A stretch of 62,181 nt of DNA, the filler included, from Basidiobolus ranarum (taxonomy: Eukaryota), in NCBI GenBank assembly GCA_040143965.1. It is 11 parts of 11 records of this genome, joined end to end, with 100 filler letters (N's around TTAATTAATTAA, not from the genome) between each part and the next. Parts side by side here need not be neighbours in the genome. Positions count along the whole stretch, not along the records: positions 22,693 to 28,261 come from JASJQH010001552.1; 10 more parts are not named here. One strand, 5' to 3'. The notes under the pieces are model-generated. The model was not told where the DNA came from. It saw only the letters and a list, made by a program, of their open reading frames with translations, and ran no database searches. The translations under genes and the position numbers were made by a program. Shown here piece by piece: positions 1,651-29,027 of the stretch (position 1 is the first letter of the stretch; each line of letters opens with the position of its first letter).

Positions 1651-2623
1651 CAACTCCCTGTCTTCTTTATTTTTCCCTTGTGCTTACTAACTTTCTGTTC
1701 TTTATGTTCTTCCATAGCTGTTTTTGTTTCTTTTTAAGTTTATAATTTTATGTATTTTGAGATATTTCATGAATAGGCCAAAACTAGCCAAATTGCCATT
1801 TGCTTGCAAAAACTCATGATAAGCCACAGAAAATAAGTCAAGAACCCTCAGAGTAACACCTGGTCTTTAATAAACCAAAAATGCCATCCATTACATCTTT
1901 GGCTTTTCCTCAATTTGCTCCTGTTGAGGTGATTTTGGGCAAGATTCCACACTGTTTCCAAAATGTCAAACTATTCATTATTTGGGCAAGTGAAAGCAGC
2001 TCTGACATTCAGAGTTCTTAGCTTGCCAGTTTTCCTATGAGATTTCTACTTTGTTGTGCCCAAGCAACTTTTGGTTGTTAAGTAGGCCTAATTGTCTGAC
2101 ACTTATTCTGCTCTGCCCTATTTTTATAATGACATTTGAATGTATGGTGTATGATTGGCTGAAATCCCATTTGATAGTGAAAGTAGGGAGCAGCATTTTG
2201 CTATAACTCCAATACAGCATTTGAGAGGTTTTGTATCTTTGTTCAGTCACTCTTTAACTATATACTAGATGCTTCAGAATGCTGCATTAATTGCAATATT
2301 GTGGTATTATTGCTTTTCATGGCCTCTATAGCAACTTTTGCCAGACAGCTCAACTATTGAGTCCCCTGTTCTTGCTGGTTCTTTTCAATTTGTGCCAGCA
2401 GGCTTTTGCTTTGAAGCCTATTTTGATTTAGATTTTTAAATACTTTTTTAATGGCATTGACCTATTTGGATGGTAAACTTGGTGTGTTGATAGCTTAGAA
2501 ACAGCTTATAATAAACCAAAGTTGCCATTAATTGCCAGAAATATCTTTTCAATCCCCTGATGACTCATTGATGACACCATCCCAAAATTGGCAGATGATA
2601 TTGTGGGGATACACCCAAAATAC

Positions 2624-2873
2624 TATTGAAATTATTTAGGGAGAAATATTGGTCTGGCCAGGATTTGAACCTGGGACCTCCTTCACTCTCAGTTGCTTCT
2701 ATAGCAAAATGTCAAAGTACCATACATTGACAGACTAGGTTAAGGTTCCTTAGCAATATAGGCATAGCATACAAGGACTAGTAGCTCAATGGTTAGAGCT
2801 CCTTGCTAGAGGGAAGGAGGTCCCAGGTTCAAATCCTGGCCAGGCCAATATTTCTCCCTAAATAATTTCAACA
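2624..2873. mobile_element. 250-bp palindromic solo-LTR-like insert carrying a tRNA-like sequence
   Basis: 66-bp terminal inverted arms (2624-2689 and 2808-2873, 3 mismatches). Ends TATTG...CAACA. Absent from the homologous CACTA copies near 13465 and 40815. Confidence 0.75.
2775..2847 (+). pseudogene. tRNA-like sequence with Pol III A and B boxes; isotype unclear
   Basis: D-arm GCTC/GAGC with A box TAGCTCAATGG; T-arm CCAGG-TTCAAAT-CCTGG; imperfect acceptor and anticodon stems. Confidence 0.75.
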
Positions 2874-5458
2874 TACAAAGCCACCAGCTGAGCAAGGCCT
2901 GGTGAATATCAACAGTGTTAAGTGAACAAAATCAACTTTAGTTTTGCCTACTGCATACACTGGCTGTGCTTTACCTCAATATTATGGTAACATTGCTGAA
3001 AGTCAAGATGCCATGGAGTTACCACCATTATAGGATTGGAATACTTTGTGTTGAACTGCAACTTTGGTCAATCCAGTAAGTCATGACAACTTTGAGGACA
3101 TGTTGCTTGATGTTGACCTTAGTTATTCCAGTACTGATGGTAGTATATCAGAAGCTGAAAAAGAAGAAAATGTTTTGTTATGGACTCTTTCTTATTGGCA
3201 AGCATTAGTCTACTCATAACACTGACACTTAAAGAACCAGCTTTGATTATTGAGGAGTGGAGAGTTCATTTCAATCTTAGCAACTTGATGTTTATTGGTT
3301 TTCTTACACTTTTACCATAGTTGATTGGCAGCAGTTGTATGCCACAGACCTGATATAAGTGAAAAACATTTGTCAATTGTATGACATATATTTCTCAGTA
3401 ACAAAACCATCTTCAAGTTGAATTGGTTATTTGGCTTTCACCAGTGATCTGAAACATGTCAACTCTTGTTTTGTCTGCTCACAGTTTGCATTCACTGAAT
3501 TGCACAAATATTATTCATATTTTACATACATACTGTTGATTCCCCATTTAATGTTTTGATAAAATCACCCAAATATGCATCATTGATCCATTACCAAAGT
3601 ACTCACCATAAAGCAGATGGGATCACCAATATACTGGAAGGATTTCACTACCAGAATGAGAAAGGTCAAGGTTTCTTTGAGAACACATATAATCATGTAT
3701 TTGCATTGGCTCTAGATGGTTTCTCCCTGAACATATATACTGTTGGAAAGGCTTGCTGGCCAAAAGTTTTGATTAACTGAAATCTTCCTTCATCTGAGCA
3801 GTATAAGAGTAATAATATTATGATACTATCTACCATAGCTGGGCCTAAGTCACCAGAGGTTATAAATAGTGGCTTGAGCCTTTGATGGCAGAATTTGAAT
3901 AGTTATTGAATGGGGTTTGGATGGGTGAATTTTTTTTTAAAGCTAATATCATTGTATGTATATGTGACACTCCTGCTATCAGTAAACAGGGAGGTTTTTG
4001 CAGGCACAATGCACTGTCTGCTATATACTTTGTCCAATCAATAGAGTCTACTCCACCATGCATACATATTTCTACTATCCAAATACAACACAAAGCTCCA
4101 GGATTTTCCCATCAAGAGCCTGGTCATATATCAACCTGCTTCCTGACATCAATTCACCCAAGAGTCAGTCTAACATCAAAGTTTAGATTAGCCAAAAGGC
4201 TGAGTTTAAATTGCCAAAGGGGATCAGCTGGAGCCAGAGCTTCCCTGTGAGCACTATGCACTAACTATTCAACAATATTTCAATACCATCTACTCAGCTG
4301 TATAGTGGAAAATTCAGTCTGAGTGAGCCATTGGAGATAGGATCATAGTTTGAATCCATTGGGAAAATGCTTCAAAAATGTCAAGATACCATCATATTTA
4401 ACCAGAATTCCCATCAATAACCACTCCTGTAGGTGTTCATTCAATAGGAAAGACTGGAAGCAAAACTCAATCCAAGGACTCAGAGTAAGTATCTTTATAA
4501 CTTGGACTAATTTGTTTGTGTGCTAATCTGATGGTATTACTAGGAAAGCTGGAAGACAGACTTCTTTGTGAGATATATCAAAATACACAGTAATATTGTC
4601 TTGGCCATGAGGTAATCTATTCAGGCAATGACTCATCTTCTTGCACCAGGCCATTTGTGACTGCTAGTTGGGAATATTTTGGCTAAATTCATTTTGAAAA
4701 TTTTCCAAATTCAAAGATTTTATTCTCATTGAAAATGGTAACAAGAGTCAGTTATCTGCTAAGTATTGGTGCTATTCAAAATTCCAGATGGTTAGCAATT
4801 TTTCCACCGTTTCTTTGCTGATTTAACATATTGCTGTTGTTGAGTTATGTCTGATCAGGCAAGCATGTGCACATGTTGATACTAAACACAACAAGATACT
4901 TGTATTTTGTGATTCTCATTACAGCTGGGATACAAAGCCTAAAACATCTAAATAAAGACATGTATATTAATTCAAATTCTTGTAGCAATAAATCTAGTAA
5001 TTTGACATGTGAAAATTTTCTTTTTGCAACAAATTGAAAACTTTATGATGCATGCCAAATATGAGGATTAATATTTACATTGTGAGAATACCATTGAAAT
5101 ACCATCAAGAAGCTGCAAAGCACTATCAAAATCCCTAGCAGAATTCAAGCCACCATTATTGTCATGGTCCTCAGATGGTGTTGCAATCCACAATGGTAAA
5201 TCTGATCCAGATGAAACTGATTTTAATTTTGTTAGGGATGTGAGAATGGTCAATCATAAATGGATTAAAATTTTGATGGTTTTCTCACAGTAAAAATCCT
5301 AATATATCTCTCAGAGAGGCAACAGTGAACCTGTGAGCAAAGTATTGTTATGTATGGGTTACTTGGAGCTACAAGAAGTTAAGAAGCAGATTGAGTTGAC
5401 TAAAAGGAGCCAAAGTATTTAGCAGAAAAATCTTATGTCAAGCTACAATCACACCCAT

Positions 5459-5575: not shown

Positions 5576-5675
5576 NNNNNNNNNNNNNNNNNNNNNNNNN
5601 NNNNNNNNNNNNNNNNNNNTTAATTAATTAANNNNNNNNNNNNNNNNNNNNNNNNNNNNNNNNNNNNNNNNNNNN
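5576..5675. other. Artificial contig linker. Others at 11250-11349, 16922-17021, 22593-22692, 28262-28361, 33928-34027, 39587-39686, 45241-45340, 50892-50991, 56538-56637
   Basis: Identical N44-TTAATTAATTAA-N44 (stops in all six frames). The intervening contigs decrease monotonically in length. Confidence 0.98.
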
Positions 5676-9200: not shown

Positions 9201-11349
9201 CGCAATCAAAAACCATTCGAGGACTCGGCCTAGACTTTGTGAAGTTTTCATTAGTATTTTGAGAATGTCTTAGAGATACACTATTGTATCACTTACATAC
9301 CAGTACCTATGGTAATCTGTTGGAAGCCATTAGCACACTATTGTTTTCATAATATTACTTATTCTACCAAGCGAGTGAGTAATCCAAGAATCTTCTTCCA
9401 CCCCAATAATCTCTATAGCATCCTCCTTCAGTGGGCTTACTATTGCATACCAATTCCCACCTCAGTTAGAGCAGCGTAGATTGTGTTGTGACAGTTGAGG
9501 TTGTCCTGACCGTAACCAAAATGAATTCATTTTACATGCATTTGATGGTTCCATTCTGCAATAAAGTAGGCTAACTCGTCCCCTCTTCAACTGTGAGTTG
9601 CAACTTCTGAACCCAGAATTTTATCGTATATGGTGTCATAGCATTCCAAAATCGAGCCGCCCAAATATGGAAATAACGGATTAACATGTTTCTATTAGCT
9701 TTAATCAATCGGGTATTTTACAGCTAGGCTAGTAGCCTCTATCGGAAATTACTAATAATCTCCTGATATCAATCTCTAAGCCTAATCTCCTGTAAAGTTG
9801 GGGCGGGGAAGGTGGGATCTTGGTGTCATGAATTATTTATCTTATTTCTGAAACCGAAATATCCATGCTTGGAACATATCCTCTATACACTCAAAAAGAT
9901 CCAAGTGGCATGCCTATCTAAGACTTGATTTTGAATATGTTAAAAATATATGTGTACTACAATTTTTCTGCATTGACTCTACTTCTTCAGCCAAATCTAT
10001 TCCTCAGTAAACCATCTCATCTTGCATATCTCCTGTTCTTACTAGAGTCTTTCAACAAGAACTGTGTTTATAACCTTCATTGTTAATACTGTTCGTACAT
10101 ATAAGGTACTTACTGGTTAACAGGGAGTAATGTGTCTCAAAATCCATCCTCTTGATAACCCTTCCTCATTAGTTACTGCTATTGGAGTGGATTTAGAATA
10201 ACCCCGTTTACATTTCAGCTAGTTGATCATCTTTCTTTCTGATGATTATAATGATCATCTTTTCTCAGAGAACACAGTCATGGGGAACAGCTTTCATATC
10301 ACACGTTAGTATTCACGTGATAATTATCTAAATATCTATTCATTTCATATCTTGATGAGAAAGTTCACTAATTCAAAAAGTTGACCTGATATTCTAGGAT
10401 TGTATCAACTACAAATTCTATGTTAGAGTTAAATGAATTAATACTCTGTCCAAGGGTTCTGGATAAGGCCAAACTACAATAGATTTTGAACTTTATCCAA
10501 CAGTAAATATTTAGCACAATAAATTGAATCAAGTCTCTACCGTGACCCTAATGGATGTGGAGAAGTATGAAAGATATTCATTAACTCACTTCTATAGCCC
10601 TGTGACAATGGCAATATGAAGTGATTTATTTCCAACATGATACTCATGTGCTTGAAAGAGTGGAGTTTGGAATCAAAGTGGACAAACACCCATAGATGTA
10701 GAACTATGTGAGATTAAAAAACTCCAAGACAAATGATGGCATCCGTGGGTGAATCAAGGGATAGAAAGTACTAAGGATGTTCAACGATCAATGAAACAAG
10801 AAAGTCTATTCTTGCTGAGGGAGTATCATGCAGAGCGATACGTTAACGCGAGATATAAACAAGATGAAACCAACAAATGAATTCGCAAATGATTGGTGAC
10901 AACCCAAAGAAATTCAGGTTGGATATTGATCTAGCAGTAGATGAATACAACAAATCAAACAGATTCGAATTTCGGATCTCTTACTTGACGGTATAAAAAG
11001 AATCCACATAAAGTAAATAATATTCGTAAAGAAAGCTGAAAATCAATTTTAAATCTTAGAAAGAAATGATACAAATATCAATTCAGTAAATATCCTTACC
11101 ATAATGGCGACAATATGGACCACTCTCCTCGCATCTCCGTAGATTGCCATGCCTATGGTGATGATATCAAACATAAGCAGTATCACATTGATGATGCTGA
11201 ACGAGCCTAGTAGATGTTGCTTTCTCTAAACCAAAGAAAAGGCCCTTTANNNNNNNNNNNNNNNNNNNNNNNNNNNNNNNNNNNNNNNNNNNNTTAATTA
11301 ATTAANNNNNNNNNNNNNNNNNNNNNNNNNNNNNNNNNNNNNNNNNNNN

Positions 11350-16921: not shown

Positions 16922-17021
16922 NNNNNNNNNNNNNNNNNNNNNNNNNNNNNNNNNNNNNNNNNNNNTTAATTAATTAANNNNNNNNNNNNNNNNNNNNNNN
17001 NNNNNNNNNNNNNNNNNNNNN

Positions 17022-22591: not shown

Positions 22592-25205
22592 TNNNNNNNN
22601 NNNNNNNNNNNNNNNNNNNNNNNNNNNNNNNNNNNNTTAATTAATTAANNNNNNNNNNNNNNNNNNNNNNNNNNNNNNNNNNNNNNNNNNNNATAAGCTC
22701 TGTAAATGAAATACTACATGTCAGTGATTTCTGATTCCTAATGGGTGGTATGCTCTCCTTATGCTGAGGCTTGCACATTATCTGTACCCAGGCAAGCGGC
22801 CTGCTCAAGCCTCGTGCCCATGTCTAAGGTTCATTGTGGAATGCAAGGGCGAAAACATCGGTTCGGCGACTGGGCTATCTATTCCCAGTGACATCCAACC
22901 TTGAATCCGTCTGGAATGTCAGTGTCAGCCATCACTTGGTATCCATGTCTGCAGCAATGGAGGGAGCAGTGGATTTGACATACTCGTGCATTGTGAAACA
23001 TGGGTATTGTTTATCTAAGCCAATATATGCCATTTCAATGATGATTCACCCTTTTCGTAGTTTATTTCCAACTTCCGTGCACCAGATCTAGAGACCTCAC
23101 AAGCGAACACCTCTCAATGGTGGCCCTTCTTCCTCACTGACCAAAGCTCGGCCATATCAACGATGCTACATCCTGTATTCCCCACAACCAGCGCTTGGTG
23201 GTTTCATTGAAAGGATTTTCGTCTGAGCAATCGGAAAGGTGCTGATTGCCAAGCAATCAATATCCATACTGAGCATTATTACGGCATGATAGAATGTTGA
23301 TTTTCCAAATGTGGAACTTTTAAACCCCGGGATTTCAAACCAAGAGTCACTTTCCGCATATGTCCCAAAGATCTCGTAGTTGGGATACTAATTTTAATCA
23401 GCCTTCATTGTTGTTCTGGAATCATTGACTGGTCATAGCGATAGCAATACAGACCCGGATAAAAGTAAACCCCCTCTATTTATAGATTCAATTCGTTTCA
23501 TCTGCACTGAGTCCTGATCGAACATCGCTCACTCAATGTAGTCAAACCTGGCAGGGAAGCCTCGTGCAGACAATAACCTTTTCTGGACCAAGACAAGGAC
23601 TTGGATTCATGAAGTTTGGACGGTGAGGATGCGATTAAAGACAAGTCTTGCTCCGAGAAAAGGATTCCCTTGTACGAGTCGGTTTAACTTAGGTCTGAGA
23701 TGTACCTTACAATCACTTCGACCCAATGTAGAAGTCAAGATCGATCAACTTATGCAAACCAATGCACAGCTATCATCCCACAGCTGTTTACCACAGTTAG
23801 AGCGACCAAGAAACCACACACACAGTGTATCTACTCGTAGTGCTTTATCCGGACGTCAGCTCATGATTCTAATGGCCCTGATTTAAATTTAGCGCCTCAG
23901 AAGGAGCCGATTGCCCCGGATAATCTGAGAAATGGTTGGAATCCACTTAGATACTTAGAAAGCATGAGGTTTTCCACTGACATTCAAGCAGTCCTCGAAT
24001 TCAGCATTTCATTGATCCTCATAAACAGTGGTTTTACCAATGAAAACATCCCTAAATTCACATCACTAGCTCCAGCCCGGTGGCTGTCAGAGTTGGATAG
24101 CACATTATTAATAATGTTTTCAACCAAAACATCACAACTAGCGTCTCTAATATTAAGCACCTGTTTATCATCTAAAATTGATCTGCCCAGGTAGCTCCGA
24201 AAAAACCTGGCCAACGATCTTCAAAAGTATGTTTTGTTCAATGCTGTAGATAAGCATTATCAGTCATGAGAGTTGGTGTGACGCTCGGTTGTCTGCACAC
24301 CTTCACTGATCGAGTCAGTTTTGGTTTGAATGTAAATAAGGTTTTTTAAGCACATTATCAGAGCTGCTGATGTAACTTGGCACGGGATTAGCCCTCTGAT
24401 TCGTCGCTACTCGATCATCTTTAGACAGAAATGATCTTCCATAAACCCATTTCGATACATGTTCTGGTTAGGTTTCATGGTGTTTATTTTGTGAACTCCG
24501 GTTTTGAATGCAAAAACGGGTTAGCTAGAGCTACACCATGACTCCAGTCTTCTTGGGAAGACCAAGTCCAGAAATACGCCTTTTCTATTCTGTTTTAGTA
24601 GCAATGGGCGAACGCTGTCCAATTGCAAGATGATAGCCTTTGTAAAACAAACTTGGACTAGTCAACACAAGTCCGAATCATCAGCTAGATGGAGCGAATC
24701 CGATATCAGATTTTCTGAGAGACGAAGAGTACGAATCCACTAAACCTATAGCAGATGATATTGGTTCATCAGGCAAGTGAGGGCCGATCACTGGATCTGT
24801 TGATTTCAATGTCTCCACTAAACTATAGTCACTTCACCCTTGGTCGCTTGAGATTCATCTATTCTCTTCTGATTGGTCGCCAGCGGAAGCTCTTTCGAAT
24901 GTTCGCGGGAGAGAAAGCCAAATTGCGCTGTGTTGATTTCTGAAATAGACTATGCAAGGATACTGATTGGACTCAGGATCGAAGGGCATCTCTATAATTG
25001 GTAAGCAAGAATCGGTTGAAAAGTATAAAGAGATGCTCGGTATTTTGTGAGATTATCGAGACAGCGATTTTCAACTTTAACGACCAAGTATCACCCATTT
25101 AGCTTCGTAGCTTTGCTCGTGTTACAAGCCAGTGGATTCACCCCAACAGTCCACCCAGCTGGCATACTTTTAACCTCTCTTGATTGATCTCTTGAACATT
25201 GAGAA

Positions 25206-26602
25206 ATGCCTCAAGATCACCAATTCTTGAATATTGATCATTTTGCTGCACTGCAAAACAACACGTAAGTAAGCCCATAGTCAGTCGCTCAACCAATGGG
25301 TCCCAGAGAATCCATGCCTAACAGTTTTCCCGTTTCTTAGTGGATTTGAGCTGATCGTACGTCAGCAGCCTGATAGAGCCCAAATTGGTACAAATAAGGA
25401 CAAGATAGGTGACAGGTCTGTTGATCCACCGCCAATTGTCCAAATCAAACAGAAAGAGGCGTCAGAACAGGCCTTCAGGTAAGTCTTGACAATACCCAAC
25501 TAGACACCTTGCCTTTTATTTACACTCATATTAGTAATATGCTTCAGAGTCCGTGTTTCTTCATGATGGCCGAGGTTATAGGCCCTACTGACGTGCAACA
25601 AGCCATTCCCCCTCACGCTTTTTCTGGGACTTTGGCATCTTCGCTACATAAATTGAAGGACATCGACAATAATGGTTTGTTGGTTTAATTGGATGATTTC
25701 AAGTTATGGAAACTAACCCTGTTCTATCAGATGGGGGGTTTTTTATTTTCCCAGAAATCTCCGTTAGACTTGAAGGGTCCTTTCGATTACGGTTTAAATT
25801 ATACCATATTTATCAGCAGCAATCGCATTTCATCACCTCTTTGTGTTCCGACCTTTTCACCGTATACTCTTCAAAGACGTTTCCCGGAATACGGGAATCC
25901 ACCTTCCTTTCACGCTCATTCTCAGACCAGGGGGCTAGGATCCGAGTGAAAAAAAGCGGCAAAGCAAGCAAAAGGAAAGGCTCTACCTTGGTAATCTCAG
26001 CATATCCAGGTACTTCGAGCCGTCAACGGCGTAACTCCCAGATGAATATGATGGAAGACTCATCACCGCACAAAACATTTCGATCCTCCAGTCTAGAGTT
26101 ATCGTCAGACTACGAAGAGAATACATTAATAGGACGACGTACATCTTACCTTATTGCATCCCACCTCAGCGCTGGTAATATGATCAGTGATGGAAAAGAC
26201 CCCGAAACACATTTCCCCAGGACGCATGCCGGAACATTTAGCGGCTCAGACATGACCTCCCCAGCATTTGTGGAATATGGATTAAGCAAAGCCAGCACAA
26301 ACCTTGTATCATATAGTGAATGCTCAACAAACCACCTCTACCCCTCACATATCCCAAATGCACCCCATCTTCAAGGAGACAACTCGCAAGTACAGAAAAC
26401 ATCCATATCATTACCATCAATTAACGCCAACTCAAGCGAATATCATGAAACGAGCGATCTACCTGATCAGGAGAAATCGGAACACTCATCTCCGCGATCA
26501 AGTATTCCCGATCTCTTTCCCAACACTTTTATCACCTATCTGCATCAATCGAACATTCCGTTGAGTTCGGAAAATGGACGTACACACTCTCAAAGACGTT
26601 GA
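25206..26602 (+). CDS. Velvet-domain transcription factor (VosA-like); exons 25206-25264, 25341-25478, 25535-25674, 25731-26602
   Basis: Three GT-AG introns join in frame: [92 protein letters not shown]. Confidence 0.92.
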
Positions 26603-26747
26603 GCGGTAAATTTGTACAGTATTTTAATCTAAAATGAGACGAATTAAAAAAATCAGTTAGACATTTCATAAAATAAATGGGATGATCGCAAAAAATTGGA
26701 GATAAGCTCAGACACATAGCAAAAGAAACTTGCTCTGTATCAAATGT

Positions 26748-27254
26748 TTAGTGTAGCAATAACCACACAGGATTGTTTGCTTTTTGAGTTGGTCGACTGC
26801 TCCTAACTGACGAGATACCCTTTCTTTTATACCCGGTGGAGAGAGGTTCCTTCCATCTGCAAAAACGTTCTGGTCTTTCCGCATTTGAGCGCAAGTTAAA
26901 AAGGATATGTCAAAGTAGCAGCCAGGTCACGATTCCAAATACGAAGGGGAGAATCTTCAGTAGTATTGGTCACGACCTTTAAACACTGTTGGTTTTTGCA
27001 CCTGAACAGAAATTAGGTTTGAATTTTTAACTTGCATATAAAAAACGTTGACTTTAAAAGGCCACTATAGGATACTTTTCTCTTTGATATGGTCTAGGAT
27101 TTTGGACTTTTTGAAACTTTTCCAGTTCACCGTTCTGGCAAGTAGGGCACGGTTTTGAAGTTTCAAACTTGTGAAGGAGATATAGTTAGAAGCCTTCTTC
27201 GGCTAACAGCTTTCTCATTCCGATACCTCTATTGGATTCATGATACTTTTTATT
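26748..27254 (-). pseudogene. Fanzor1 (eukaryotic TnpB-like) nuclease C-terminal remnant with putative intron 27002-27052
   Basis: KYHESNRGIGMRKLLAEEGF*LYLLHKFETSKPCPTCQNGELEKFQKVQNPRPYQREKYPIV / GLLK^CKNQQC..RIWNRDLAATL / HILFNLRSNAERPERFCR. Shows the RuvC-II region, zinc finger and RuvC-III. One stop and two frameshifts. Confidence 0.85.
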
Positions 27255-28261
27255 TAGTATTAATGGGTAGGGTTAGGTTAGGGGGATGAAAAGCACCAGG
27301 TGGTGTGGTCTTTATTAAGCTTATATACTAATCTAAATGAAGTGACAATCAAGACATCATTCTTTTGAGATATTGTGACAATACTGGATCATATCCATAC
27401 TTAACTTCATGACCAGTGTAATCAAGTTCTGAGGATGTAAATGTAGTGTTAAGGGGCAAAGGGGGTGGGCAGAAAGGAAGGTACTTAACACAAACTAATG
27501 CGCAATAGGACAAAAACCTTGAATAATGGGGATCAAGAAAGGTGTCTTGGATACAAGTTATTGCTTCTAAAGATCTAACTGGAAGAATATAGCAACAATT
27601 TTAGGCTGCTTTGTTTTATGTAGTTGTAAAGCTAATTCAGAAACAAGAGGGTCATCTTGTATCAGTTTCCAGCATGATAGTGGACTTGAAGATGGTGTGG
27701 TGAGCCACTTCTTGACCAGTGGATTTCTGCAGTTATTCAGTGGGAGTAAAAATTTAGCCCCCAACAGCACTACTCTAACATTATTGGGGAAAAATGCAAA
27801 TGTTCCATTCAGAGCATGATTACAGGGAGTCTCAGGCAAGTCAGGCATTAGGGGGAGACAGTCAACAACAGGTGAAATCTTTATTTCAAACAAAACAAAG
27901 AAGCCATAACTACTTTTGTAGTTTCTCATTAAAAGTGTGAAGTTCTGGAGTATTGGTACAAATGTTGCAAAGTAGAAAAGTTAAGTCAGTAGAGTCTAAG
28001 ACACTATTAAGTGGAGTGGGAGGGAGTAATAAAGGTAAAAATGGTTTGTCAACAACAGAAATAAGTGGAATGAGGCTAGCATTAACATAAAGCATAAAGG
28101 GAGTATGTTTCTGAAGATATTGCTGCCAAAGGTCCACTAAGTATTCCTTGTAGGCAAGGGAGGGCTTCTCAGCTTGTTCTATAAAGGAAGCAAATTTCCT
28201 GACTTCAGGATCTCCTAGCAGTACTCTCCAGCAAGAAGAAGGATCAGAGAAGTGGGAACCT
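27255..28261 (-). mobile_element. Decayed non-LTR retrotransposon (LINE-like) 3' end
   Basis: Strong CpG depletion. Broken ORF with degenerate CCHC-like CLPLMPDLPETPCNHAL. Ends in AATAAA and an A-rich run (CTAAATAAAAA) at the Fanzor junction. Confidence 0.4.
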
Positions 28262-28361
28262 NNNNNNNNNNNNNNNNNNNNNNNNNNNNNNNNNNNNNNN
28301 NNNNNTTAATTAATTAANNNNNNNNNNNNNNNNNNNNNNNNNNNNNNNNNNNNNNNNNNNN

Positions 28362-29027
<666 letters not shown>

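What the first reader, a model, noticed from the sequence alone, without database searches (positions are those of the whole stretch)
26748..27254. Hidden Fanzor1 (eukaryotic TnpB-like RNA-guided nuclease) relic, invisible in the ORF track
Seen: minus-strand translation across one stop (27186-27188), two small frameshifting deletions and one intron gives KYHESNRGIGMRKLLAEEGF*LYLLHKFETSKPCPTC..KVQNPRPYQREKYP..GLLKCKNQQC..RIWNRDLAATL..HILFNLR..RPERFCR. Known: Fanzor1/TnpB proteins end with RuvC-II (DExxTS..CPxC), a second Cys pair and RuvC-III (WNRD..A..N). Here CPTC (27138-27149) and WNRD (26926-26937) are intact, but DE reads HK (CAC AAG); GAG>AAG is the expected CpG deamination product. Inference: this copy is dead, but it marks an OMEGA/Fanzor family in this genome whose intact copies or consensus could be an uncharacterised programmable nuclease.
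Basis: partly seen in the sequence, partly recalled or inferred. Interest (0 to 1): 0.88.

Follow-up and report, generated by a model that had tools for sequence, protein, structure and literature searches.

The report
Dead Fanzor1 transposon end in Basidiobolus
This is a broken leftover, about 635 bases long, of a jumping gene that once carried a known RNA-guided DNA cutter (Fanzor1); it is ordinary, except that its nearest relatives live in the distantly related bread mould Rhizopus, which suggests it crossed between fungal phyla.

Summary
It is a real Fanzor1 remnant. The first piece alone matches the solved Parasitella parasitica Fanzor1 at E 1e-13. The whole stretch matches Rhizopus arrhizus proteins at E 9e-43.

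It is only the right-hand ~635 bp (26615-27249) of an element of about 2.9 kb. That element has no transposase, has 135-nt inverted ends and carries Fanzor1; an intact relative is metagenome contig L001. The relic keeps the last ~158 codons, the intron and a shortened right inverted repeat. It ends at a TA 13 nt after the stop codon of a velvet gene. Its 5' side is cut off by the tail of a LINE retrotransposon fragment.

The copy is dead. RuvC-I is absent, D-E reads H-K, and the frame is broken.

The family is not new. Fanzor1 has been known in Rhizopus since 2013, and Parasitella Fanzor1 (PpFz1) is characterised.

The host piece is Basidiobolus-like. Even so, the intron and inverted repeat are 74-76% identical to the Rhizopus-type element, which points to horizontal transfer. 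An AU test did not confirm nesting inside Rhizopus (p 0.156).

The scan holds 1453 earlier notes containing 'fanzor', all on other DNA.

The parts
26615..26616 (.). TA dinucleotide flanking the right end of the element. It is the putative target-site copy and lies 13 nt after the velvet stop codon.
   Evidence: Alignment to both ends of L001, which are also flanked by TA. Two bases cannot be tested statistically, so this is an inference.
26617..26747 (-). Remnant of the right terminal inverted repeat and subterminal region. The outer end reads 5'-CAGTATTTTAATCTAAAATGAGACG on the + strand.
   Evidence: blastn gives 88% over 51 nt to L001 4533-4583, and 77% over 79 nt, in reverse, to the left repeat L001 1721-1799. 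Three-way alignment A2. Over the repeat, 64 of 87 aligned bases are identical, with 48 gap columns.
26748..26765 (-). Read-through tail. The ancestral stop (TAG in L001) is TGG at 26763-26765, and the frame now ends at TAA 26748-26750.
26751..26909 (-). Last coding piece (HILFNLRSNAERPERFCR...), the C-terminal tail of Fanzor1.
   Evidence: tblastn to P0001 residues 276-324; nucleotide identity over exon 2 is 195/244. This piece alone finds nothing in PDB sequences.
26910..26910 (-). Site of an 8-nt frameshifting deletion. The codons for N-F-R of relatives are lost.
   Evidence: Alignment to L001 and to P0001.
26911..27000 (-). Coding piece with the second Cys pair (CKNQQC) and RuvC-III (WNRD, 26926-26937). 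It includes a 12-nt in-frame gap relative to L001.
   Evidence: for coordinates. phmmer to PDB 9cf0 gives E 0.0077 at the collinear place, residues 1204-1235. Also.
27002..27052 (-). Intron remnant of 51 nt, GTCAAC...CTAAT...CAG, phase 2 (AA|G).
   Evidence: It is at the same position as the intron of L001: the P0003 exons map to 2569-4038 and 4089-4358. L001 has GTAAGT...CAG. Of the aligned intron bases, 32 of 42 are identical.
27053..27065 (-). Codons G-L-L-K(AA), preceded by the site of a 10-nt frameshifting deletion at 27064-27065. A-D-R-H of relatives is lost.
27066..27185 (-). Coding piece with the RuvC-II region (LLHKFETS; H-K at 27168-27173 where relatives have D-E) and the first Cys pair (CPTC, 27138-27149).
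   Evidence: L001 has GAC GAG at this place. Family census.
27186..27188 (-). In-frame TAA stop. L001 has CAG (Q) here and P0001 has R.
27189..27249 (-). First retained Fanzor codons (KYHESNRGIGMRKLLAEEGF). The break point with the LINE tail is at about 27250.
   Evidence: Homology to L001 starts at AAAGTATCATG. All 120 family proteins start matching at 27254 or 27248.
27250..27851 (-). 5'-truncated, decayed non-LTR (LINE) retrotransposon fragment B. It comprises the C-terminal part of ORF2 plus a 3' tail with AATAAAG...CCCCCTAA...AAATAAAAA, and it abuts the Fanzor break point.
   Evidence: phmmer of ORF 27570-27980 against 1.84 billion representatives found 5 hits. Four are used here; the fifth, P0143, a WD40/kinase protein at E 4e-5, was dropped. 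RVT_1 was found on 3 of the 4 and Exo_endo_phos_2 on 1. Two carry Basidiobolus meristosporus names. Mapping.
27852..28261 (-). LINE fragment A: the end of ORF2, a stop at 27910-27912 and a short 3' tail. It runs to the end of the 5569-bp piece.
   Evidence: tblastn gives 83% to P0142 residues 550-663 of 664, and 53-57% to P0141 and P0139.
25206..26602 (+). Host velvet-domain gene, convergent with the relic. Its TGA stop is at 26600-26602.
   Evidence: Pfam Velvet, E 5.5e-25. It is 100% identical to P0121, which a source names Basidiobolus ranarum, on a 5569-bp contig. Exon map.

Best explanation
The feature is the non-functional right-hand end (window 26615-27249, minus strand, about 635 bp) of a DNA transposon of about 2.9 kb. 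That transposon has no transposase, has long terminal inverted repeats, and its only gene is a Fanzor1 RNA-guided nuclease.

Shown:
- The relic keeps the last ~158 codons of Fanzor1: the RuvC-II region, the zinc ribbon with both Cys pairs, RuvC-III and the C-terminal tail.
- It keeps the gene's single intron and a shortened right inverted repeat.
- The element ends at a TA 13 nt downstream of the stop codon of a velvet gene on the other strand.
- On its 5' side it is cut at about 27250 by the 3' tail of a 5'-truncated LINE. A second LINE fragment lies beyond that one.
- The RuvC-I aspartate and everything N-terminal to it are absent from the window.
- The remaining frame carries a TAA stop, a 10-nt and an 8-nt frameshift, H-K in place of D-E at RuvC-II, and a changed stop codon.

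Inferred:
- It makes no nuclease and does nothing as a Fanzor.
- The element arrived by cut-and-paste transposition into a TA site, with a transposase supplied in trans. It then decayed neutrally: codon positions 1, 2 and 3 are 75, 83 and 73% identical to the relative.
- The host piece is Basidiobolus-like (phylum Basidiobolomycota), while the relic's nearest relatives are Fanzor1 elements of Rhizopus arrhizus/delemar (Mucoromycota). Nucleotide identity is 74-80% even in the intron and the inverted repeat. The element was therefore most likely acquired by horizontal transposon transfer from a Rhizopus-like mucoralean donor. I hold this last step at about 0.6.
For: Identity as Fanzor1:
- tblastn of P0001 residues 167-324 onto 27254-26766 gives E 9e-43.
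- P0001 against PDB sequences gives Parasitella Fanzor1 9cf0 at E 2.3e-66 and Spizellomyces Fanzor1 8gkh at E 5e-23.
- The relic's first piece alone gives 9cf0 at E 1.1e-13 and 8gkh at E 0.0067.

Fragment status:
- None of the 134 tblastn matches of the 120 family proteins lies outside 26700-27300.

Element anatomy:
- L001 encodes P0003 at 100% identity and has 135-nt inverted repeats, 89% complementary.
- The relic aligns to L001 at 75% over 546 columns, E 3e-107.
- It aligns at 88% over 51 nt to the right repeat end, and in reverse to the left repeat.

LINE cut.

Host identity:
- The velvet protein is 100% identical to a protein that a source names B. ranarum, on a 5569-bp contig. That equals the length of this piece.
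- The LINE relatives carry B. meristosporus names.

Transfer:
- The X-bridged read-through is 64-68% identical to R. arrhizus/delemar proteins, 48-55% to R. microsporus and about 50% to Coemansia.
- In the tree the relic sits in a starred (98/94) clade of 13 rows, and the other 12 are all R. arrhizus/delemar.
- Intron identity is 32/42, inverted repeat 64/87, third codon positions 54/74.
- The lineages are in different phyla.
Against: - Pfam finds nothing on any of the 4 pieces. Even the intact P0001 reaches only E 0.18 for the Cas12f1-like TNB domain, below the cut-off.
- The third coding piece alone finds nothing in PDB sequences. The second piece is outranked there by 7 designed WD40 repeat proteins that sum many weak WNR matches.
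- Against the transfer step: an AU test did not reject a tree that holds the 15 Rhizopus rows together without the relic (p 0.156). The protein tree alone therefore does not prove nesting inside Rhizopus.
- No Rhizopus or Basidiobolus genome could be searched.
- No host-gene baseline of nucleotide divergence could be computed. The GAPDH search gave no identities or species.
- Only one complete relative (L001) defines the ends, so the TA target duplication and the superfamily are tentative.
- The 5' half of the gene could exist beyond the end of this 5569-bp piece.
Confidence: 0.85

Rival explanations
1. The relic is a vertically inherited remnant of an old, native Basidiobolus Fanzor1 family. 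Its likeness to Rhizopus copies would then reflect slow evolution or ancient paralogy, not transfer.
For: - The AU test does not reject placing the relic outside the 15 Rhizopus rows (p 0.156).
- Fanzor1 also occurs in other early-diverging fungal lineages outside Mucoromycota, such as Syncephalis and Coemansia.
- Passages of PMC5751038 call Basidiobolus genomes TE-rich.
Against: - The intron (32/42), inverted repeat (64/87) and third codon positions (54/74) are still alignable to a Rhizopus-type element at 73-76%. Established knowledge is that unconstrained sites saturate long before a split between phyla.
- The host velvet protein finds Mucorales relatives only at 35-55% identity over 25-54% of its length.
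- None of the 120 listed relatives of P0002 is named Basidiobolus, although proteins named for both Basidiobolus species are in that database.
Confidence: 0.12
2. The relic is an assembly chimera or contamination. On this reading the Fanzor stretch comes from a mucoralean contaminant and was wrongly joined into a Basidiobolus contig.
For: - The piece is short (5569 bp) and ends inside a repeat (a LINE).
- The nearest relatives are all Rhizopus.
Against: - The stretch is flanked on both sides by Basidiobolus-type sequence: a velvet gene 13 nt away and LINE fragments whose named relatives are B. meristosporus. Two false joins would be needed.
- The stretch is a decayed pseudogene, 20-25% different in DNA from the R. 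arrhizus-type element. It is at most 68-70% identical to any listed protein, so it is not a read of a living Rhizopus contaminant.
Confidence: 0.04
3. The remnant is not inert. Either its right end still gives a guide-type RNA usable by Fanzor proteins made elsewhere in the genome, or it now supplies the 3' untranslated region and poly(A) signal of the convergent velvet gene.
For: - Fanzor guide RNAs overlap the right inverted repeat and run past the ORF (PMC10530073, passage).
- The repeat end is the best conserved non-coding part, 88% over 51 nt.
- The element begins 13 nt after the velvet stop, and the + strand of the repeat holds an AATAAA about 70 nt downstream (read).
Against: - Relative to L001, the relic shows 48 gap columns within the 135-nt repeat and 25 more in the 87 nt between stop and repeat.
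- Folding is not distinctive: z -1.8 for the relic and -2.2 for L001.
- There is no Rfam match.
- No intact Fanzor is known in this genome.
- No RNA data could be consulted.
Confidence: 0.1
4. It is a chance resemblance, or an unrelated zinc-finger gene fragment.
For: Pfam finds no family on the 4 pieces.
Against: E 9e-43, 1.1e-13 and 3e-107 in three independent comparisons, with collinear order of all motifs, the intron and the inverted repeat.
Confidence: 0.01

Closest known systems
Fanzor1 elements of Rhizopus arrhizus/delemar (proteins P0003, P0001 and P0004; element on metagenome contig L001; R. oryzae Fanzor1 families ROr-1 to ROr-4 of Bao & Jurka 2013, PMC3627910)
   Same: - Same gene, same intron position, same C-terminal tail and same inverted-repeat sequence.
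- 64-68% protein identity and 77-80% exon nucleotide identity.
   Different: - The relic is only the last ~22% of the element. It is broken by a stop and two frameshifts, and D-E has become H-K.
- It sits in a Basidiobolus-like genome.
- I could not see the ROr sequences because supplements are closed, so I cannot say which ROr family it corresponds to.
Parasitella parasitica Fanzor1 (PpFz1; PDB 9cf0-9cf3; Xu et al. 2024, PMC11423790)
   Same: - It is homologous over the RuvC-II, zinc-ribbon and RuvC-III region. The relic piece gives E 1.1e-13; the P0049 row is 44% identical.
- PpFz1 is a proven RNA-guided DNA endonuclease with TAM 5'-ATN (passage of the paper).
   Different: - PpFz1 is intact (849 aa as P0049), keeps D-E and is active.
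- It belongs to a different branch of the tree.
Spizellomyces punctatus Fanzor1 (SpuFz1; PDB 8gkh; Saito et al. 2023, PMC10432273)
   Same: Same domain order and motifs. P0001 gives E 5e-23 and the relic piece E 0.0067.
   Different: It is much more distant, a chytrid element, intact and active.
Fanzor1-only elements with Mariner-type ends and TA target duplications (such as PUl-4; Bao & Jurka 2013, PMC3627910, passage)
   Same: - Transposase-less, bounded by inverted repeats and flanked by TA.
- The relic's terminus reads TA|CAGT..., which I recall as typical of Tc1/mariner ends.
   Different: - The superfamily was not tested here. Only one full copy was seen, and a 2-bp duplication cannot be verified.
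- The same paper assigns another Rhizopus family (ROr-4) to MuDr, with 9-bp duplications, which L001 does not show.

Membership tests
Fanzor1 (eukaryotic TnpB-like RNA-guided nuclease) | Significant sequence homology to experimentally characterised Fanzor1 proteins | tested here: met
   The relic piece against PDB sequences gives PpFz1 at E 1.1e-13 and SpuFz1 at E 0.0067. Its nearest full relative, P0001, gives 2.3e-66 and 5e-23.
Fanzor1 (eukaryotic TnpB-like RNA-guided nuclease) | RuvC-I aspartate (DPG-type motif) | tested here: not met
   It is absent. Nothing in the window matches the part of any of the 120 relatives that lies N-terminal to the break at ~27250. Relatives have I-D-P-G, for example at P0003 position 271.
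Fanzor1 (eukaryotic TnpB-like RNA-guided nuclease) | RuvC-II glutamate just before [FY]xTS and the first CxxC | tested here: not met
   The relic reads H-K-F-E-T-S (27173-27156). Among 85 of 120 relatives with the motif, 78 have E and 7 have K. L001 has GAC GAG. The role of this Glu comes from PMC11423790 (passage).
Fanzor1 (eukaryotic TnpB-like RNA-guided nuclease) | C4 zinc ribbon (two Cys pairs) between RuvC-II and RuvC-III | tested here: met
   CPTC at 27138-27149 and CKNQQC at 27000-26983. The motif definition is from the abstract of PMC3627910.
Fanzor1 (eukaryotic TnpB-like RNA-guided nuclease) | RuvC-III aspartate (RD motif) | tested here: met
   WNRD at 26926-26937, aligned to the WNRD of PpFz1.
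Fanzor1 (eukaryotic TnpB-like RNA-guided nuclease) | Open reading frame able to give a full-length protein | tested here: not met
   One TAA stop, a 10-nt and an 8-nt frameshift, and 5' truncation by a LINE.
Fanzor1 (eukaryotic TnpB-like RNA-guided nuclease) | Guide (omega/f) RNA encoded at the right end of the element | tested here: inconclusive
   The right repeat is present but shortened. Folding gives z -1.8. There is no Rfam match.
TIR DNA transposon carrying Fanzor1 without a transposase (Tc1/mariner-like?) | Terminal inverted repeats bounding the Fanzor gene | tested here: met
   L001 has 135-nt arms, 89% complementary. The relic aligns to both arms.
TIR DNA transposon carrying Fanzor1 without a transposase (Tc1/mariner-like?) | TA target-site duplication and Tc1/mariner-type termini | tested here: inconclusive
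   TA lies next to both ends of L001 and next to the relic's end. That is only one full copy and 2 bp. The likeness of the terminus to Tc1/mariner is recalled, not tested.

The most novel reading that the evidence does not exclude
A Fanzor1-bearing TIR transposon moved horizontally between fungal phyla, from a Rhizopus-like mucoralean donor into the Basidiobolus lineage, fairly recently on the scale of that split. This relic, parked 13 nt behind a velvet regulator gene and later hit by LINEs, would be its footprint. If intact sister copies survive elsewhere in the very large, TE-rich Basidiobolus genome, they would be a PpFz1-like nuclease family in a new host phylum.
Probability: 0.55. Interest if true: 0.4.

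Novelty: new member of a known kind. Interest (0 to 1): 0.25.

Why it matters
As a nuclease it does not matter. The copy is a dead fragment of a family that has been known since 2013, and a close relative (PpFz1) has been purified, assayed and solved.

Two modest points remain:
- No paper in the searched library holds both 'Fanzor' and 'Basidiobolus'. This would therefore add a host lineage.
- The alignable intron and inverted repeat give an unusually direct, DNA-level indication that Fanzor1 elements move between distant fungi. Saito et al. 2023 proposed this only in general terms (PMC10432273, passage).

The case also shows how Fanzor relics should be read: the surviving repeat end, the shared intron and the LINE cut tell the history.

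Tried and rejected
- Pfam on the four separate pieces gave nothing at E<=10.
Copy number, intact copies and the missing 5' half could therefore not be examined.
- Rfam on the 5569-bp piece gave 0 matches at E<=1.
- The ESM Atlas on the upstream ORF gave scores of 0.84-0.86 only, which is uninformative. The HMMER representative search then identified that ORF as a LINE ORF2 tail.
- Repeats within the piece: only short matches of chance size. blastn of the repeat and the LINE against the whole window found no other copy.
- RNA folding of the 3' region of the relic and of L001 gave z -1.8 and -2.2, taken as inconclusive.
- A GAPDH search of PDB sequences, meant as a baseline of host divergence, returned no identities or species and was not used.
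- The telomere-like CCCTAA run at ~27265-27285 was rejected as a telomere. The same AATAAAG...CCCCCTAA motif ends the other LINE fragment.
- The reading of E>K as a private lesion was rejected: 7 of 85 relatives, including the two nearest, have K.
- The earlier notes of this scan listed all concern other genomes and did not change my reading. Searches returned nothing.
Full report
**1. What the window is**

The 62181-base window is not one stretch of genome. It is 11 pieces of 5575 down to 5544 bases, in order of falling length, joined by spacers of 44 N, TTAATTAATTAA and 44 N. The finding lies in the fifth piece, 22693-28261 (5569 bases). The GAPDH gene just 'upstream' (28362-29027) belongs to another piece and is not a neighbour. 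No whole genome is held for the window.

**2. The observation**

- ..KYHESNRGIGMRKLLAEEGF (to 27189).
- TAA stop (27186-27188).
- LYLLHKFETSKPCPTCQNGELEKFQKVQNPRPYQREKYPI (27185-27066).
- In another frame, GLLK (27063-27052).
- After 51 nt, CKNQQCLKVVTNTTEDSPLRIWNRDLAATL (27000-26911).
- In the first frame again, HILFNLRSNAERPERFCR...LLLH (26909-26751).

**3. Is it Fanzor?**

Pfam alone says nothing on the four pieces. The other searches are clear.

- A word-indexed search of 5.8 billion proteins with the 69-residue first piece (stop read as X) found 2 proteins among 14 candidates. Both are Rhizopus arrhizus hypothetical proteins, at 70-72% identity and E 1.5e-22.
- One of them, P0001 (324 aa), aligns by tblastn from residue 167 to its last residue with window 27254-26766, E 9e-43. 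The next hit anywhere in the window has E 0.38.
- P0001 itself matches the solved Parasitella parasitica Fanzor1 (PDB 9cf0) at E 2.3e-66. It matches Spizellomyces punctatus Fanzor1 (8gkh) at E 5e-23.
- The relic's first piece alone matches them at E 1.1e-13 and 0.0067.
- The second piece matches 9cf0 at the collinear place at E 0.0077. Seven designed WD40 repeat proteins outrank it there, but only by adding up many weak WNR matches.
- The third piece finds nothing.

The family assignment is therefore right.

**4. How much of the gene is there, and what cut it**

A search with P0002 found 156 relatives, of which the best 120 are listed. I laid all 120 on the window. All 134 matches fall within 26700-27300, and all begin at 27254 or 27248. 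Only the last ~158 codons are present.

The sequence just upstream on the same strand is not Fanzor.
- ORF 27570-27980 found 5 proteins among 1.84 billion representatives.
- Four of these are used. Three carry reverse-transcriptase domains, one also carries an AP-endonuclease domain, and two are named Basidiobolus meristosporus. The fifth, a WD40/kinase protein at E 4e-5, I set aside as spurious.
- They map as two 5'-truncated LINE ORF2 tails: 28257-27913 (83% to P0142, ending at the stop 27910-27912) and 27851-27393.
- Both tails end with AATAAAG...CCCCCTAA. This explains the telomere-like run next to the relic.

The Fanzor gene is thus cut at about 27250 by the A-rich end of a LINE. Whether its front half lies beyond the LINEs cannot be seen, because the piece ends at 28261.

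**5. The carrier element**

A scan of metagenome contigs with an alignment of 12 close relatives gave 4 loci.

L001 (4815 bases):
- It encodes P0003 (a source names it R. arrhizus; UniRef 'Transposase') at 100% identity, in two exons, 2569-4038 and 4089-4358.
- The gene lies between 135-nt inverted repeats, 1721-1855 and 4446-4580, 89% complementary.
- No other long ORF lies between the repeats, and TA lies outside both ends.

The relic against L001:
- It aligns at 75% over 546 columns, E 3e-107.
- After a gap, it aligns at 88% over 51 nt to the outer end of the right repeat, and in reverse at 77% over 79 nt to the left repeat.

The relic therefore runs on past its stop codon to the true right end of the element: TA at 26615-26616, repeat from 26617. 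That is 13 nt after the TGA (26600-26602) of a convergent velvet-domain gene (Pfam E 5.5e-25; gene model).

The alignment also settles the lesions:
- A 10-nt deletion (A-D-R-H lost).
- An 8-nt deletion (N-F-R lost).
- In-frame gaps of 12 and 6 nt.
- CAG to TAA at 27186-27188.
- The old stop TAG now TGG (26763-26765).
- An intron at the same place as in L001 (GTAAGT..CAG there, GTCAAC..CTAAT..CAG here).
- 25 gap columns in the 87 nt between stop and repeat, and 48 within the 135-nt repeat.

**6. The catalytic site**

Xu et al. 2024 (PMC11423790, passages read) place the catalytic Glu on the loop between the fifth strand and the TNB domain, that is, just before [FY]xTS.

- L001 has GAC GAG (D-E) there and the relic CAC AAG (H-K).
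- It is not private. Of 120 relatives, 85 show the motif: D-E 59, N-E 18, D-K 5, N-K 2, Y-E 1. The two nearest R. arrhizus proteins read D-K.
- The relic shows no general CpG decay. There are 56 transitions and 43 transversions. Of the 17 CpGs in L001, 3-4 are TG/CA/TA in the relic, against 7 of 14 in the other direction.

**7. Whose genome, and where the element came from**

Host identity:
- The velvet protein is 100% identical to a protein that a source names Basidiobolus ranarum, on a contig of 5569 bases.
- Its next relatives are B. ranarum and B. meristosporus paralogues at 53-55%. Mucorales proteins match only over the conserved domain.
- Together with the LINE relatives, this makes both flanks of the relic Basidiobolus-like.

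Relatives of the relic:
- The X-bridged read-through (155 residues, built in a script) is 64-68% identical to R. arrhizus/delemar proteins. It is 48-55% identical to R. microsporus, about 50% to Coemansia and 44% to the Parasitella row.
- I built an IQ-TREE tree of the 54 relatives that cover at least 100 residues, plus the relic, on 158 columns. Relatives with shorter coverage were left out.
- The relic sits in a starred (98/94) clade of 13 rows. The other 12 are all R. arrhizus/delemar, and R. microsporus is sister.
- The relic's end branch is long (0.38), as expected for a pseudogene.
- An AU test did not reject holding the 15 Rhizopus rows together without the relic (p 0.156). The protein tree alone therefore does not prove nesting.

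The DNA is the stronger evidence:

| Part | Identical / aligned | Identity |
|---|---|---|
| Exon 1 | 169/219 | 77.2% |
| Intron | 32/42 | 76.2% |
| Exon 2 | 195/244 | 79.9% |
| Inverted repeat | 64/87 | 73.6% |

- Codon positions 1, 2 and 3 are 75.3, 83.3 and 73.0% identical.
- Basidiobolus and Rhizopus are in different phyla.
- Established knowledge is that unconstrained sites such as introns are saturated over such a split. Horizontal transfer of the element from a Rhizopus-like donor is therefore my preferred reading, at about 0.6.
- A native old family and an assembly chimera are the rivals. The chimera would need two false joins and would not explain the decay.

**8. Function**

- As a Fanzor the relic does nothing. 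It has no RuvC-I, no catalytic Glu and no open frame.
- Fanzor guide RNAs overlap the right inverted repeat (PMC10530073, passage). The outer 51 nt of the repeat are well kept, but the region is shortened, folds unremarkably (z -1.8; L001 -2.2) and matches no Rfam family.
- Because the element begins 13 nt after the velvet stop codon, the velvet mRNA's 3' end probably lies in the repeat. An AATAAA lies about 70 nt downstream on the + strand. This is inference only, since no RNA data could be consulted.

**9. What is known**

- Bao & Jurka 2013 (PMC3627910; abstract and passages read) defined the motif D...[TS][TS]xx[C4]...RD. They listed 4 Fanzor1 families in Rhizopus oryzae and 10 in Mucor circinelloides. 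They also described Fanzor1-only elements with Mariner ends and TA duplications, and MuDr-type ones with 9-bp duplications.
- Saito et al. [quoted passage not shown]
- Xu et al. 2024 showed that PpFz1 cuts DNA with TAM ATN, and noted a domain shared only by Parasitella and Rhizopus proteins.
- No paper in the searched library holds both 'Fanzor' and 'Basidiobolus'.
- Muszewska et al. 2017 (PMC5751038; passages) call Basidiobolus genomes TE-rich.
I therefore cannot say which named family this is.

**10. Verdict**

It is a new member of a known kind, of low interest as a nuclease. It carries a modestly interesting and testable sign of cross-phylum transposon transfer.

Noticed in passing
window 5576-5675, 11250-11349, 16922-17021, 22593-22692, 28262-28361 and five more: The window is 11 separate pieces (5575 down to 5544 bases, sorted by length) joined by N44-TTAATTAATTAA-N44 spacers. 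Genes on either side of a spacer, such as the GAPDH at 28362-29027, are not neighbours of the finding.
   Followed up: yes
window 27250-28261 (minus strand): Two 5'-truncated LINE ORF2 tails lie head to tail. They share a 3' motif, AATAAAG...CCCCCTAA, that looks like a telomere repeat but is not. The outer one is 83% identical to an unnamed ENA protein (P0142).
   Followed up: partly
window 26600-26700 (+ strand): The velvet gene's stop codon is 13 nt from the transposon end. An AATAAA lies about 70 nt downstream, inside the inverted repeat. The element may now supply this gene's 3' untranslated region.
   Followed up: no
P0002 (a source names it R. arrhizus), residues 481-561: This annotated protein is a Fanzor1 gene model that runs, after residue ~480, into a ribosomal protein S24e domain (Pfam E 2e-11). 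This is probably a merged gene model next to a truncated element.
   Followed up: no
family proteins P0001, P0002, P0022, P0071, P0097, P0089, P0093: Lys replaces the RuvC-II catalytic Glu in 7 of 85 relatives from several branches. This suggests a recurrent hit at the same GAC/AAC-GAG CpG in decaying copies.
   Followed up: partly
tree: Fanzor1 proteins that sources name Mucor mucedo and Mucor fragilis (P0108, P0100) group with Syncephalis rows (98/86 and 97/88, starred) rather than with other Mucorales. This is another patchy, cross-phylum pattern in the family.
   Followed up: no
L001 908-940, 975-1017, 1192-1234: A 43-nt perfect inverted repeat, plus a third 33-nt copy, lies upstream of the Rhizopus-type element. 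It may be a small MITE-like insertion.
   Followed up: no
L001 2356-2568: The Fanzor reading frame of L001 is open for 71 codons upstream of the annotated start of P0003. The annotated 577-aa protein may therefore lack its true N-terminus.
   Followed up: no
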